From NCBI GenBank assembly GCA_048937405.1, contig JBHLNF010000001.1:512001-576000 (forward strand): a stretch of 64,000 nt of DNA. Direction: 5' to 3'. This document shows positions 42,350 through 47,215 of the stretch, in pieces; the first letter of the stretch is position 1, and the number at the start of each line of letters is the position of its first letter. Position numbers and translations under genes: made by a program. Below the pieces are notes generated by a model. That model was not told the DNA's origin, did not search any database, and worked only from the letters and a program-made list of their open reading frames with translations. Source of the DNA: Promethearchaeota archaeon. Its GTDB lineage: Archaea; Asgardarchaeota; Lokiarchaeia; Sigyniarchaeales; SOKP01.

Positions 42350-43588
42350 TCACAGTTTTAAGATAATACTCAATAATATTGGAAAATGTTCTTCAGATCC
42401 CCATACGACATAAATCTTATCCTCTAGGGGAATTGCTACATGTCTGGCAGCTACGATCCAATCAGTGCCAACATTATTTCCCGTTTCAGTCCCTTCTTTA
42501 AATTTGAAATACATAGTCATTCCCAAATAGTCTTGGATTTTTGTGTCCTCGATTCTAATATCCTCAAGATCAGGAATTGTGTATTCTTTGACATCGAGGT
42601 CAGGTTGTATAGGTTCTCTCATTTTTTCAGATGAAAGTTGTAAGGCAGCTTTAATAATAACTTCTTCCTTCACTTTTTTGTTATATTCAAAAATAATTAA
42701 ACCACAATCCTTTTCCTCACCCGTTACTCCAAGAGTGTTAAAATCAAAAGATTTTTCGCTATACAATTGAAAATCTTTTTTAATTTCTGTCATATCCATC
42801 CAACCATTCTCAAGTGTTTCCCCCATTATATAGCGAAAACTCTTTAAAATCTTTAACTCCTCTTCTTTTTGCTGAATTCGTTCATCGAATATATCATTTA
42901 ATGGTCTAGCAATATATTCTTGTGCACTCCGAGGCATCAACGGCAATTTCAATATCCAACCCTTACTTATCAAACGATCAATTATTCGATATATTGTCGT
43001 TCTTTTAATAGAGAGATCATCATTCAACTCACCAACTTTAGCTCCATTTTTACCTCTTGTTAATAAAGCCAAATAAACTTTTGCTTCTTCAATGCTTAAT
43101 CCAAATTTTAACAATCCAAGCTCTTGTAAATTATTTGTATCGTCAAGGAGTATTCTGGGAGTCGCCCATTTTAATTCTTCTACTTTACCTAAAGGAGTAT
43201 CGAAGTCCATATAAGGTTTCTTTGAACTTAACTTGCTTAAAGTTCGAGAAGCTTCCATCATTCCAAGTCGCTTTAATCCATTCGGAGCGACTTTACATAT
43301 AATCATCCTTTCTTCATCTTTAAATCCTAAAATTCCACCTTTCTCATTTGGTTCTATCCCAACCAATCTTTCAGGAGTAATTTGAATGATAACATATTTA
43401 ATACCCGAGATCATAAGAGACGTATGCTTCTTTGACCTCCAAACTGAAATAATCTCATTAATATCACTACTAATATCCCAATTATCTGTTGAATATTCTA
43501 ACTCTTTTTCTCCTTTTATTATTGCTGCAGCAATGGTTTTTGCTTCAGATTGTATTAATTCATTAAGAGCCTGTATTATTTTTTCCAT
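42350..43588 (-). CDS. Asgard profilin-like domain fused to a TrmB-type winged HTH and a C-terminal domain
   Basis: aa 1-120: AAAII..YSTDNWDIS..SLMISGIKYVIIQITPERLVG..G.ILG (Loki profilin pattern); aa ~155-245: FGLSIEEAKVYLALL..IKRTTIYRIIDRLISKGWI..YIARP. Confidence 0.8.
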   Translation of the reverse strand: MEKIIQALNELIQSEAKTIAAAIIKGEKELEYSTDNWDISSDINEIISVWRSKKHTSLMISGIKYVIIQITPERLVGIEPNEKGGILGFKDEERMIICKVAPNGLKRLGMMEASRTLSKLSSKKPYMDFDTPLGKVEELKWATPRILLDDTNNLQELGLLKFGLSIEEAKVYLALLTRGKNGAKVGELNDDLSIKRTTIYRIIDRLISKGWILKLPLMPRSAQEYIARPLNDIFDERIQQKEEELKILKSFRYIMGETLENGWMDMTEIKKDFQLYSEKSFDFNTLGVTGEEKDCGLIIFEYNKKVKEEVIIKAALQLSSEKMREPIQPDLDVKEYTIPDLEDIRIEDTKIQDYLGMTMYFKFKEGTETGNNVGTDWIVAARHVAIPLEDKIYVVWGSEEHFPILLSIILKL

Positions 43589-43638
43589 ACTTTAATACCC
43601 TCTCTATTATCTTTTTCAATTTTATAAAAAAAAATTAT

Positions 43639-43836
43639 TTATTTTTCTCCAAATTTCCTTTTTATTTCATCTAATACCTTTTTGTAATACATATTTTCTT
43701 TAGATTCTTGAATTTCCGTGAAATATTCCGGCATTATTAAATTCTTGGATTTTTGTTTTAGATCTTTTTCCGATATAATAATTCCTTCATCCAGTACTAT
43801 GCAAGCAATTCCATCCATTATTCTTATTCTTACCAT
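43639..43836 (-). CDS. small hypothetical protein in the actin cluster
   Basis: 65 aa; AGGGA SD before ATG; 36 nt after the actin stop. Confidence 0.7.
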   Translation of the reverse strand: MVRIRIMDGIACIVLDEGIIISEKDLKQKSKNLIMPEYFTEIQESKENMYYKKVLDEIKRKFGEK

Positions 43837-43872: not shown

Positions 43873-45018
43873 TTAAAAACATCGATGGATAACTTGAGGA
43901 CCTAATTCCTTGTAATCTCGTCTAGTAATCCACATCCTATAAAAAGTCTTTAAAGAACTTAAAATAGATCCGCCAATCCACACCGAATACATTCGTTCAG
44001 GAGGAGCTATTATTTTGACATCAATTGATTCTGGAATTTGTTCTTTGATTTCTCGGGTTAATCTCTCTTTAATACCGGGAAACATTGTAGAACCACCTGA
44101 AAGAACAATATTACTATAAAGATCTCTTCGTAAATCTACATCACACTCAGATATTGCGCCTATTATAACATCATCTAAGGGAGCTAATTCTTTTCCTACA
44201 ACAGAAGGATTAAATAAACATTCCGGAGCTAAAAACCTTTCAAGTCCAATTGTAATAGTTTCACCATCAGGAAGCATAAAATTCTTTGCCATCCCAGCTA
44301 CTTTATTGGAAAGAATAATTTCCTTTTCTGGATCAATAGCAACATAGCATAATTTTTCTTTAATATCTCTTACAATCTCTTTCTCGGCTGAAGTATAAAA
44401 TGAATATCCATTTTGCCTTAATAACCTCTGCAAATATGTTGTAACATCCCTTCCAGCTAGATCAATTCGCTGTATCGCATGACTTAATGCAAATCCCTCA
44501 AATATGGGTACTATATGTGCAACTCCATCTCCGATATCTACAACACATCCCGTCGTTCGACCAGAAGCATAAAGTGATAAGACTGCTTGTGTTGCGATAT
44601 AAAGAGCTGGGACATTGAATGTTTCGAACATTATTTCTGCCATTTTTTCTCTATTTGATCTGGGATTCAATGGAGCTTCTGTTAATAGTACAGGAAATTC
44701 TGATGGATCAATTCTTAGATCTGTATAGAATGTATAATGATATATTCTTTCCATTGCTGGCCAATCTTCAACAACTCCATGTTCGATAGGAAATTGTAGA
44801 TTCATTATCCCTTTTAATTCCATCGCTTCTTCTCCAATATACCATTCTCGACTGTAATCTTTTACATCAGGCATAATGTTACCATATTTTGGTTTTCCAA
44901 TAACAGTTGGAAAAACCGAACGTGGCTGATCTTCACCTCCAAAACCATTTTTTGAGATTCCTGTCCCATTATCTATAACAATAGCTCTATTATTTCTAAA
45001 GTCCCCGTTGACTGAAAT
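43873..45018 (-). CDS. Asgard actin homolog (381 aa), probable ATT start
   Basis: Frame extends 48 codons upstream of the track ATG and adds IVIDNGTGISKNGFGGEDQPRSVFPT; also LLTEAPLNP, LYASGRTTG, DIGDG, LSGGSTMFPG, SVWIGGSIL and IHRCF. Confidence 0.95.
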   Translation of the reverse strand: MSVNGDFRNNRAIVIDNGTGISKNGFGGEDQPRSVFPTVIGKPKYGNIMPDVKDYSREWYIGEEAMELKGIMNLQFPIEHGVVEDWPAMERIYHYTFYTDLRIDPSEFPVLLTEAPLNPRSNREKMAEIMFETFNVPALYIATQAVLSLYASGRTTGCVVDIGDGVAHIVPIFEGFALSHAIQRIDLAGRDVTTYLQRLLRQNGYSFYTSAEKEIVRDIKEKLCYVAIDPEKEIILSNKVAGMAKNFMLPDGETITIGLERFLAPECLFNPSVVGKELAPLDDVIIGAISECDVDLRRDLYSNIVLSGGSTMFPGIKERLTREIKEQIPESIDVKIIAPPERMYSVWIGGSILSSLKTFYRMWITRRDYKELGPQVIHRCF

Positions 45019-45072
45019 TTTAAAACCACCTCTTTTTTTTATATTGAGTTATAGATTAAATAAAAATGATAA

Positions 45073-45102
45073 TATTTAAATGTTGTCACGATATGGTGAC
45101 AA
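45073..45102 (-). promoter_or_regulatory. actin promoter TATA box with an adjacent palindromic operator
   Basis: TTTAAATA at 45080..45073; perfect inverted repeat TTGTCAC-GATATG-GTGACAA at 45083..45102. Confidence 0.65.
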
Positions 45103-45177
45103 TTATGTTATGAATTGTAAACAACAAAAAAAAAAATTAATTAACTCAAAATTTCTTTAAATAGATAGAAAAGTATT

Positions 45178-45612
45178 ATGACAAGTTTAACTAGTACTGA
45201 AATAAGTTGTCCTCACTGTAAAAACTCATTTCGGATTATCTGGGAAGCATCAATAAATACGTGGTTAAATCCAGAATTAATTCAAAAAATTCTTGATGAT
45301 AGATATTATTATGAATGTCCAAAATGTACAAAACAAATACATTTTGTGACAAAGATTTTAATAAATTGTCCTAAAGGGATGTTTTGGATATCAAATGATG
45401 AAGAAATAGAAATAAAAAAAAAAATCTTGAAAGATTATGGTGTTATTAACGAGGATGGAAAGATTTTAACTCCAATAAGGGGAGTTGATCTTCCTGCAGA
45501 TGATCACCCCGGTTTGAACTCCAACTTTGATAAGATAATTAGGAACTTTAAAGATGAGTTGTTAACTAACAATAATAATGATTCTTTAGAAAAAAAGAAT
45601 AAGAGTAGATAA
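45178..45612 (+). CDS. CpXC-type zinc-ribbon protein
   Basis: ISCPHC..SINT..PEL..ECPKC. Confidence 0.75.
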   Translation: MTSLTSTEISCPHCKNSFRIIWEASINTWLNPELIQKILDDRYYYECPKCTKQIHFVTKILINCPKGMFWISNDEEIEIKKKILKDYGVINEDGKILTPIRGVDLPADDHPGLNSNFDKIIRNFKDELLTNNNNDSLEKKNKSR

Positions 45613-46681: not shown

Positions 46682-47199
46682 TATGATCCCTCTTCTGAAT
46701 TGGTAATTTGTTCTCTTGCAAAATTTATTAGACCTTGTGCTTTAATTATTTTCTGTAAAAAAGCTGGAAATTTGCTAAAGGAATATGATTTGCTAGTGGT
46801 TATATTTTCTATAATTCCGTTCCCAAAGTCAATATTTAGTAGATCTCCATTATTAAAAGCATCGATGTCAGAAAACCGAAGAATTGGAAGTCCAATATTA
46901 ATGGCATTTCTGAAAAATATACGTGCAAAACTGGGAGCGATAATTAATTCTATTCCCGAAGCTTTTAAAGCAATTGGTGCTTGTTCTCGGCTTGAACCAC
47001 AACCAAAATTTGAGCCTGAGACGAGAATTGTTGCCTGAAGATTATCTTTATTCTTATGAAACTCCCCATCTAAATCTTCCATGCAATGCTCAGCTAAAAA
47101 CTGAGGATTTATGTCTACTAAGTATCGAGCAGGGATTATTAAATCTGTATTGATATTTTCTTGAGCATATTTAATTACTTTTCCTTTTATTTCTATCAC
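46681..47199 (-). CDS. leuD: 3-isopropylmalate dehydratase small subunit
   Basis: INTDLIIPARYL, NFGCGSSREQA and FARIFFRN motifs; start may be ATA 47190. Confidence 0.93.
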   Translation of the reverse strand: MIEIKGKVIKYAQENINTDLIIPARYLVDINPQFLAEHCMEDLDGEFHKNKDNLQATILVSGSNFGCGSSREQAPIALKASGIELIIAPSFARIFFRNAINIGLPILRFSDIDAFNNGDLLNIDFGNGIIENITTSKSYSFSKFPAFLQKIIKAQGLINFAREQITNSEEGS

Positions 47200-47215
47200 C
47201 TTTTATATTTTACCT

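What the first reader, a model, noticed from the sequence alone, without database searches (positions are those of the whole stretch)
44875..45033. Actin must initiate at a non-canonical codon (ATT)
Seen: the essential phosphate-1 loop (IVIDNGTG) lies upstream of the first ATG (44874). The frame is closed by TAA at 45051..45049 and has no ATG/GTG/TTG in between. GAGGTGG lies 7 nt before ATT 45018, giving a 381-aa actin. Inference: AUU initiation, which would lower or regulate the output of this actin and cause automated pipelines to truncate it.
Basis: partly seen in the sequence, partly recalled or inferred. Interest (0 to 1): 0.7.

Follow-up and report, generated by a model that had tools for sequence, protein, structure and literature searches.

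The report
Asgard actin paralogue starting at AUU
A second actin gene of this uncultured Asgard (Loki-type) archaeon really has no ATG/GTG/TTG start and begins at a strictly conserved ATT behind a strong ribosome-binding site, one case of a genome-wide habit that makes gene finders cut such proteins short.

Summary
The minus-strand actin frame (45048..43873) opens after TAA 45051..45049. It has no ATG/GTG/TTG before ATG 44874, which lies after the phosphate-1 loop. GAGGTGG (45032..45026) sits 7 nt before ATT 45018..45016.

The gene is a second Lokiactin paralogue, "B", 85% identical to the genome's main actin, which starts at ATG. I recovered 22 orthologues with ATT at this codon. In four of them an in-frame TAA directly precedes the ATT. 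Sister lineages carry ATG or TTG at the same codon. The ATT never varies, whereas none of 12 always-Ile internal codons and none of 81 conserved four-fold codons keeps a single codon. dN/dS is 0.02-0.05. Assemblies from three studies show the same bases.

ATT orthologues have stronger SDs than ATG/TTG ones (-11.3 versus about -6 kcal/mol). Public records truncate the protein to 333 or 365-367 aa, including two from the original Loki's Castle data. One NCBI MAG already annotates the ATT.

It is not actin-specific. My census finds about 30 SD-led ATT/ATA/ATC/CTG starts in this genome. Earlier reports of this scan found the same on other DNA. Whether AUU throttles or regulates actin B is untested.

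The parts
43873..45018 (-). Actin paralogue B coding sequence: ATT start at 45018, 381 codons, stop codon at 43875..43873
   Evidence: Pfam Actin 425 bits, profile 4-407 of 410. It is 85% identical to the genome's main Lokiactin-type gene on contig C25. dN/dS is 0.02-0.05 against orthologues.
45016..45018 (-). ATT initiation codon
   Evidence: It is invariant in 22 orthologues and 6 metagenome contigs. ATG or TTG occupies the same codon in sister lineages. TAA directly precedes it in L068, L070, L072 and L073. No read difference was seen.
45026..45032 (-). Shine-Dalgarno sequence GAGGTGG, 7 nt before the ATT
   Evidence: It pairs with the 16S rRNA 3' end ...GGAUCACCUCCU of a same-genus genome. 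The duplex energy is -13.4 kcal/mol. GGTG is conserved in 21 of the 22 ATT orthologues; L067 has GAGTTGAT.
45033..45040 (-). A8 tract just upstream of the SD, an unstructured A-rich leader
   Evidence: The leader is A-rich in all orthologues. No conserved helix hides the SD.
45049..45051 (-). In-frame TAA that closes the frame upstream
45073..45080 (-). TTTAAATA, the likely TATA box, 54 nt before the ATT. By inference this gives a leader of roughly 30 nt.
   Evidence: It is conserved in most same-genus orthologues. The transcription start site was not mapped.
45083..45102 (.). Perfect palindrome TTGTCAC-N6-GTGACAA abutting the TATA box, a candidate operator
Evidence: It is conserved in about 11 orthologous promoters.
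44959..44982 (-). Coding sequence of the phosphate-1 loop IVIDNGTG, upstream of the first canonical start codon
44872..44874 (-). First in-frame ATG (codon 49), the false start used by gene callers
   Evidence: Database proteins P0086, P0108 and P0121 (333 aa) start at the homologous ATG.
42350..43836 (-). Co-oriented downstream genes: a 65-aa ORF (43836..43642) and a 412-aa TrmB-family protein (43588..42350)
   Evidence: Pfam TrmB HTH at residues 159-213. The same gene order is found beside actin B in L036, L037, L040, L109 and L110.

Best explanation
The gene encodes a second, accessory Lokiactin-type actin, paralogue B. Its mRNA is leadered. A TATA-like box lies 54 nt upstream of the start, followed by an A-rich leader carrying a 7-bp Shine-Dalgarno sequence (GAGGUGG). 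The SD pairs with the 3' end of 16S rRNA and places the codon 7 nt downstream, AUU 45018..45016, in the P site. Initiator Met-tRNA has the ordinary CAU anticodon and reads AUU with a third-position mismatch. The product is then (M)SVNGDFRNNRAIVIDNGTG..., 381 aa, a complete actin.

Shown here: no canonical start exists, the SD and its spacing fit, the ATT is fixed among orthologues while ordinary Ile codons drift, ATG or TTG sits at the same codon in sister lineages, and the gene is under strong purifying selection.

Inferred: Met as first residue, the transcription start, and that AUU gives weaker initiation which a strong SD offsets.

The case is one of a genome-wide habit of this lineage. 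About 30 strong-SD genes start at ATT, ATA, ATC or CTG, among them apparently aIF1. Gene finders limited to ATG/GTG/TTG cut these proteins short.
For: - No ATG/GTG/TTG lies between TAA 45051 and the P1 loop.
- Pfam Actin needs residues from position 10 of the ATT-started protein.
- In 22 orthologues of two genera the motif GGTG(G)-N6-9-ATT TCA GTC AAY GGG is kept. The spacer varies freely, giving F, L, K or R if it were read as codons.
- In L008-10, L036 and L049 an in-frame stop lies 1-5 codons upstream of the ATT. In L068, L070, L072 and L073 it directly precedes the ATT.
- ATG (L037, L051, L069, L074, L075) or TTG (L052-54, L071) occupies the same codon in sister lineages.
- ATT is invariant in 22 of 22, against 0 of 12 always-Ile codons and 0 of 81 conserved four-fold codons.
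- dN/dS is 0.02-0.05 at dS 0.7-3.7.
- Eight further metagenome loci show 6 ATT and 2 TTG.
- No read-level difference was found at the ATT or the SD in contigs from 3 studies.
- The 16S 3' end of a same-genus genome is GGAUCACCUCCU. Mean SD duplex energy is -11.3 kcal/mol for ATT orthologues, -5.8 for ATG and -6.2 for TTG.
- Genome census: behind a 6-mer SD, ATT occurs 17 times and ATA 14 times, against about 5.5 and 4.3 expected. For 9 of 20 candidates tested, Pfam domains start upstream of the first canonical codon.
- The initiator tRNA gene has a normal CUCAUAA anticodon loop.
- An NCBI MAG record already annotates the ATT start of an orthologue.
- An ATT start with an RBS was proposed for an Asgard tubulin (PMC13394414).
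Against: - There is no direct evidence of translation: no RNA run holds the locus, and no peptide, ribosome-profiling or 5'-end data exist.
- The link between SD strength and start codon rests on only two or three independent phylogenetic contrasts.
- Nucleotide-level conservation extends a few codons past the ATT (TCA GTC AAY GGG, with the rare Gly codon GGG). Part of the invariance could therefore reflect another local constraint.
- SD-led initiation is reported to be rare in Lokiarchaea (PMC12993045, PMC7531240). This was also seen here: only about 2.6% of first ATGs have a 6-mer SD.
- In L046 and L047 a GTG inside the SD is in frame 3-4 codons upstream of the ATT, so in those two species the start is ambiguous.
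Confidence: 0.88

Rival explanations
1. The AUU is an actin-specific throttle or switch. It is kept weak so that synthesis of actin B responds to start-codon stringency, for example to the level of aIF1, whose own gene also seems to start at AUU. Alternatively it forms part of the circuit with the TrmB-family regulator encoded downstream. This refines the main reading rather than contradicting it.
For: - ATT never changes to ATG, ATA or ATC in 22 orthologues and 6 metagenome loci, although one step would make an ATG.
- Strong SDs go with ATT and weak SDs with ATG or TTG.
- The operon with a TrmB-family gene is conserved, and a palindrome sits at the promoter.
- The aIF1 gene has no canonical start before its zinc ribbon.
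Against: - About 30 unrelated genes use the same device, including the uS4, uL15 and Pop5 genes. No actin-specific reason is therefore needed.
- Sister lineages do well with ATG or TTG.
- No expression data exist.
- Codon-bias contrasts between actins A and B cannot be read as expression levels.
Confidence: 0.2
2. Translation starts at the first canonical codon, ATG 44874, and makes a 333-aa N-terminally truncated actin, as most gene callers annotate.
For: Database entries of 333 aa exist for orthologues. These are predictions only.
Against: - Such a protein lacks the phosphate-1 loop and the first strands of subdomain 1.
- The 48 codons upstream evolve as coding sequence, with mainly synonymous changes and conserved residues.
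- There is no SD before 44874.
- Relatives with ATG or TTG at the ATT position encode the full N-terminus.
Confidence: 0.02
3. Sequencing or assembly error, or a decaying pseudogene copy of the main actin.
For: It is a second copy, present in only about a third of the genomes searched in two genera.
Against: - The bases are identical in contigs from three studies.
- The same ATT occurs in 22 species.
- The frame is intact in all copies, and dN/dS is 0.02-0.05.
Confidence: 0.01
4. Initiation occurs at another non-canonical site. Candidates are the upstream ATA 45042, the internal ATT 44982 or ATA 44976, or reinitiation after a tiny upstream ORF.
For: - ATA is used as a start elsewhere in this genome.
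- One subclade (L068, L070, L072, L073) has a 6-codon ORF, ATG AAA AAA GGT GGG GTT TAA, ending right at the ATT.
Against: - ATA 45042 lies upstream of the SD and is absent or cut off by stop codons in orthologues.
- The internal ATT and ATA have no SD, vary among orthologues (ATT/ATA/TTG, ATA/ATC/ATG/TTA), and would remove strand beta-1.
- The mini-ORF is absent from the window and from the whole genus.
Confidence: 0.04

Closest known systems
Bacterial infC (IF3) and pcnB: conserved AUU start codons behind an SD (cited from established knowledge: Butler 1987, Sacerdot 1996)
   Same: It is a conserved AUU start on a leadered, SD-bearing mRNA. The weak codon is kept by selection. Gene finders miss it.
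   Different: This case is an archaeon with eukaryote-type factors (aIF1, aIF1A, aIF2). The gene is a cytoskeletal protein, not an initiation factor. No autoregulatory loop is shown for it. In this genome AUU and AUA starts number in the dozens rather than one or two.
Proposed 'rare ATT start codon' of AtubA tubulin in a Kariarchaeaceae (Asgard) MAG (PMC13394414, read)
   Same: It is an Asgard cytoskeletal gene whose deposited protein is N-terminally too short. An upstream ATT at a plausible distance from an RBS restores the first beta strand.
   Different: That case is a tubulin in another Asgard class, argued from a single sequence and a structure model. Here the ATT is backed by 22 orthologues, sister ATG/TTG states, abutting stop codons and a codon-drift control.
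Lokiactin, the main Asgard actin (Pfam PF00022)
   Same: It has a full actin domain and is 85% identical to the genome's main Lokiactin-type gene. It is 55-61% identical to eukaryotic actins. DNGTG, DIGDG and LSGGST motifs are present.
   Different: It is an accessory paralogue found in 28 of 95 genomes searched in two genera. It has a non-acidic N-terminus ((M)SVNGDFRNNR versus MAEEESF) and evolves faster. It has an SD-led AUU start, whereas the main copy has ATG without an SD. It sits in an operon with a TrmB-family regulator.
Near-cognate initiation in eukaryotes controlled by eIF1/eIF5 stringency (cited from established knowledge)
   Same: Met-tRNAi reads a codon with one mismatch, and the archaeal homologue aIF1 is the expected gatekeeper.
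   Different: Here the start site is chosen by SD pairing, not by scanning and Kozak context. No data on factor dependence exist.

Membership tests
Actin family (Pfam PF00022), Lokiactin type | Full-length match to the actin domain above the curated cut-off | tested here: met
   425 bits against a cut-off of 27, profile positions 4-407 of 410, residues 10-379. A genome search gave 423 bits.
Actin family (Pfam PF00022), Lokiactin type | Nucleotide-binding motifs: phosphate-1 DNGTG, phosphate-2 DxGDG and the adenosine loop LSGGxT | tested here: met
   VIDNGTG, VVDIGDGVAH and VLSGGSTMFPG are present in P0001. This was read from the sequence; no biochemical test was done.
Actin family (Pfam PF00022), Lokiactin type | High identity to Asgard Lokiactin and to eukaryotic actin | tested here: met
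   85% identical to the main copy of the same genome and 55-61% to eukaryotic actins.
Actin family (Pfam PF00022), Lokiactin type | ATP-dependent polymerisation into F-actin-like filaments | not testable with these tools
   This needs the purified protein.
Genes with a genuine AUU (non-canonical) start codon | No ATG/GTG/TTG upstream of residues that the protein family requires | tested here: met
Genes with a genuine AUU (non-canonical) start codon | Ribosome-binding site at the spacing used by canonical starts of the same genome | tested here: met
   GAGGTGG lies 7 nt upstream, and GGTG ends 8 nt upstream. In the genome census, spacings from the end of GGTG to the first canonical start were most often 5, 7, 8 or 10 nt. 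It pairs with the 16S 3' end.
Genes with a genuine AUU (non-canonical) start codon | The codon is conserved among orthologues beyond synonymous drift, and a canonical start sits at the same site in some relatives | tested here: met
   22 of 22 ATT against 0 of 12 Ile controls. ATG or TTG is found in 9 sister orthologues.
Genes with a genuine AUU (non-canonical) start codon | Experimental N-terminus or initiating-ribosome footprint at the codon | not testable with these tools
   No RNA holder was listed for the locus, and no proteome was available.
infC-type autoregulated AUU genes | Expression is repressed by the initiation factor that discriminates against AUU | not tested
   The only observation is that the aIF1 gene of this genome also lacks a canonical start.

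The most novel reading that the evidence does not exclude
AUU and AUA starts behind strong SDs form a translational regulon in these Lokiarchaeia, gated by aIF1, whose own gene starts at AUU. Actin B, with its invariant AUU, palindromic operator and downstream TrmB-family (possibly profilin-fused) regulator, would then be controlled at two levels. That would make it a conditionally produced actin isoform: an archaeal forerunner of eukaryotic stringency-controlled near-cognate initiation acting on the cytoskeleton.
Probability: 0.15. Interest if true: 0.8.

Novelty: new member of a known kind. Interest (0 to 1): 0.5.

Why it matters
Asgard actins are central to ideas about the origin of the eukaryotic cytoskeleton. 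This second Lokiactin paralogue is stored in public databases as an N-terminally cut fragment, including two entries from the founding Loki's Castle metagenome. It is therefore easily dismissed or mis-modelled.

The case is also one of the cleanest comparative proofs that these archaea really initiate at AUU. The codon is frozen in 22 species while ordinary Ile codons drift, and stop codons abut it. This supports re-annotating near-cognate starts across the lineage.

It also raises a testable question: how does a eukaryote-like initiation apparatus (aIF1, aIF1A, aIF2), combined with an SD, accept AUU? Whether the weak codon tunes the amount of this actin remains open.

Tried and rejected
- RNA evidence: no RNA holder is listed for the locus, so nothing can be said on expression.
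- SD-hiding structure: the window's leader folds into a helix that covers the SD (z -2.8). The helix is not kept in 16 orthologues and the consensus fold is negligible (-1.2 kcal/mol), so I rejected it.
- Codon bias as an expression proxy: actin A is at the 99.7th percentile for C-ending NNY codons and actin B at the 23rd. Ribosomal protein genes show no such bias, and transposases score high. The contrast therefore cannot be read as expression.
- 16S rRNA: none is present in this assembly. I used the 3' end from a same-genus genome instead.
- ARAGORN finds only 7-14 tRNAs, probably because the genes are intron-rich. I located the initiator tRNA by pattern instead, and its anticodon loop is normal. 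That rules out a dedicated AUU-reading anticodon for that gene only.
- Exact look-up of the 333-aa truncated form of the window's own gene: not in the collection.
- Literature: I found no report of the actin-B ATT start or of widespread AUU/AUA starts in Asgard archaea in the searchable library. This does not prove that none exists.

Full report
**1. Observation**

- On the minus strand an actin reading frame runs stop-to-stop from 45048 to 43873. It follows TAA 45051..45049.
- Read codon by codon, no ATG, GTG or TTG occurs before ATG 44874..44872, which is codon 49 counted from the ATT.
- The phosphate-1 loop (IVIDNGTG, 44982..44959) lies upstream of that ATG.
- GAGGTGG occupies 45032..45026, the spacer TTTTAAA occupies 45025..45019, and ATT occupies 45018..45016.
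- Translation from the ATT gives 381 residues. These match Pfam Actin from profile position 4 to 407 of 410 (425 bits).
- Every element of the finding is therefore present at the stated coordinates.

**2. Not an error**

- Contigs of four public runs from three studies were laid on 44700..45300.
- One contig each from X1, X2 and X3 covers the start region with zero differences.
- A diverged relative in X6 differs at many sites, but not at the ATT or the SD.
- The best holder may be the sample from which the window was assembled. The other two studies are independent.

**3. What the gene is**

- The genome (4.47 Mb, 29 contigs, 29% G+C) carries five actin-family genes.
- The best match is a Lokiactin-type gene on contig C25 with an ordinary ATG (MAEEESFLNAK...). 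I call it actin A; its protein core is identical in 8 same-genus species.
- The window's gene is 85% identical to it. I call it actin B.
- Actin B was found in 16 of 53 genomes of the genus and 12 of 42 of a sister genus. It forms its own clade (SH-aLRT 83-94).
- It is under strong purifying selection: dN/dS is 0.02-0.05 at dS 0.7-3.7. It is not a pseudogene.
- Source names of close database relatives are Promethearchaeota (Asgard) MAGs and the Loki's Castle sediment metagenome.

**4. Where translation starts**

- In 22 orthologues the start region reads (A)GAGGTGG or GGTGG, then 6-9 nt, then ATT TCA GTC AAY GGG.
- The spacer changes freely (TTT/TTA/AAA/AGA...). From the ATT onward, changes are mainly synonymous.
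- In-frame stop codons lie 1-5 codons upstream of the ATT in several species.
- In L068, L070, L072 and L073 a TAA directly precedes the ATT, so nothing upstream can be coded there.
- In sister lineages the same codon is ATG (L037, L051, L069, L074, L075) or TTG (L052-L054, L071), followed by the same SVNGDF peptide.
- A scan of metagenome contigs with a pattern that excludes the start codon added eight loci, six with ATT and two with TTG.
- As a control, I took the 22 ATT orthologues and looked at the 12 internal positions that are Ile in all of them. None keeps a single codon; ATT, ATA and ATC mix freely.
- None of 81 conserved four-fold codon positions is invariant either.
- The start ATT therefore does not behave as an Ile codon. 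It is held by selection on its third base.

**5. The ribosome-binding site**

- This assembly has no 16S gene.
- A same-genus genome whose actin B is 96% identical has 16S ending in ...GGAUCACCUCCU.
- GAGGUGG pairs with this end over 7 bp, one of them G-U. The computed duplex energy is -13.4 kcal/mol.
- In the genome, spacings from the end of GGTG to the first canonical start were most often 5, 7, 8 or 10 nt. The actin's spacing is 8.
- Across orthologues, ATT goes with stronger SDs (mean -11.3 kcal/mol, range -13.9 to -6.4) than ATG (-5.8) or TTG (-6.2).
- This fits compensation of a weak codon by a strong SD. It rests on only two or three independent contrasts.
- No conserved structure hides the SD.
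- A TATA-like TTTAAATA (45080..45073) lies 54 nt before the ATT. It is preceded by a perfect palindrome, TTGTCAC-N6-GTGACAA (45102..45083), conserved in about 11 orthologous promoters.
- By inference the leader is about 30 nt long.

**6. Not special to actin**

- I censused codons that lie at least 10 codons before the first canonical start of open frames of 100 codons or more, and that are preceded at 6-9 nt by a 6-mer of AGGAGGTGATCC.
- This gave ATT 17 and ATA 14, against about 5.5 and 4.3 expected. Counts for AAA, AAT, TTA and TTT were 1-4.
- The same criterion gave 67 ATG, 22 TTG and 5 GTG starts.
- The candidates include recognisable N-termini of the uS4, uL15 and Pop5 genes, a cytidylyltransferase, a Rad3-type helicase, ThiF, a receiver domain, Usp, DUF134 and an ETF-ferredoxin fusion.
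- For 9 of 20 candidates tested, the Pfam domain starts upstream of the first canonical codon.
- The aIF1 gene has its zinc ribbon upstream of the first canonical codon, with an ATT candidate start.
- The initiator tRNA gene has the usual CUCAUAA anticodon loop. AUU is therefore presumably read with a mismatch.
- Earlier reports of this scan reached the same genome-wide conclusion on other contigs. I reached it independently before reading them.

**7. Annotation consequences**

- Public proteins of this clade are cut in several ways.
- P0086, P0108 (LCGC14_1049910) and P0121 have 333 aa and start at the ATG homologous to 44874.
- P0011 (LCGC14_0639260), P0018 and P0024 have 365-367 aa and start at MDNGTG.
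- P0007 has 385 aa and starts at a GTG inside the SD.
- The Loki's Castle contigs themselves show AGAGGTGG, then 6-7 nt, then ATT.
- One NCBI MAG record (GCA_048940845.1) already calls the ATT and gives a 381-aa product.

**8. Literature**

- Reviews state that SDs are rare in Lokiarchaea (PMC12993045, PMC7531240).
- A 2026 paper proposes a 'rare ATT start codon' with an RBS for an Asgard tubulin, AtubA (PMC13394414).
- I found no report on this actin or on widespread AUU/AUA starts in Asgard archaea.

**9. Verdict**

It has not been shown experimentally.
- The regulatory reading, that AUU lowers or tunes the output of actin B, is plausible because the ATT is selected and the SD appears to compensate. 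It remains untested, and the device is generic in this lineage.
- Novelty: a new, well-supported member of a known kind (genuine AUU starts), in an unusual setting (an Asgard actin paralogue).
- Interest is moderate. It is raised by the quality of the comparative proof and by the mis-annotation of Lokiarchaeal actins. It is lowered because the phenomenon has precedent and the scan has already described it genome-wide.

Noticed in passing
G000 genome-wide, e.g. C28:552393+ (uS4, ATA), C7:218519+ (uL15, ATT), C18:68688+ (cytidylyltransferase, ATT), C7:809970+ (helicase, ATA), C6:21297+ (Fer4-ETF, CTG), C27:35336+ (Usp, ATC): About 30 genes with a strong SD start at ATT, ATA, ATC or CTG. For 9 of 20 tested, Pfam domains begin upstream of the first canonical codon. 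Other reports of this scan found the same.
   Followed up: partly
window 42350-43588 (-) and 45083-45102: The 412-aa protein two genes downstream of actin B has a central TrmB winged helix. Its N-terminal ~125 aa look profilin-like by eye (ISGIKYVIIQ...KGGILG). A perfect palindrome, TTGTCAC-N6-GTGACAA, abuts the actin TATA box and is conserved in orthologous promoters. Together these suggest a possible actin-sensing transcription circuit.
   Followed up: partly
G000:C29:22004-22300 (-), locus L106: The aIF1 (SUI1) gene has no ATG/GTG/TTG before its zinc-ribbon cysteines. An ATT three codons after an in-frame TAA is the likely start.
   Followed up: partly
L068, L070, L072, L073 (genus g22), just upstream of actin B: A six-codon mini-ORF, ATG AAA AAA GGT GGG GTT TAA, contains the SD and ends exactly at the ATT start of actin B. 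This suggests possible termination-reinitiation coupling in that subclade. It is absent from the window's genus.
   Followed up: no
window 47188-47200 (-): The likely leuD gene has GGTGAT, then 4 nt, then ATA AAA GGA AAA GTA..., giving MKGKVIKYAQENINTDLIIPARY. A GTG inside the SD is in frame and would be picked by gene callers.
   Followed up: partly
G000:C25:219072-220199 (-), locus L001, and orthologues L011-L024: The main Lokiactin-type gene has no SD. An A/T-rich TATA-like stretch ends about 25 nt before its ATG, which suggests a leaderless or very short-leader mRNA. Its use of C- and G-ending codons is at the 99.7th percentile of the genome, unlike ribosomal protein genes.
   Followed up: partly
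G000:C3 (-), about 10.3 kb from the contig end: The initiator tRNA gene carries at least one intron after the anticodon loop, and probably another in the 3' half. ARAGORN finds only 7-14 tRNAs in the whole genome.
   Followed up: no
G000:C16:15658+, C16:16541+, C28:527630+: Three paralogous coiled-coil proteins (ISIDW[AV]K[AV]EEKPEKK...) each start at ATT behind AGGTGA. Their function is unknown.
   Followed up: no
window 45016-45003 and orthologues: The first codons after the ATT (TCA GTC AAY GGG) are unusually conserved at the nucleotide level. This includes the rare Gly codon GGG in 17 of the 22 ATT orthologues. The ATG/TTG lineages mostly have GGT GAT there, which creates an SD-like GGTGAT inside the gene.
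   Followed up: no
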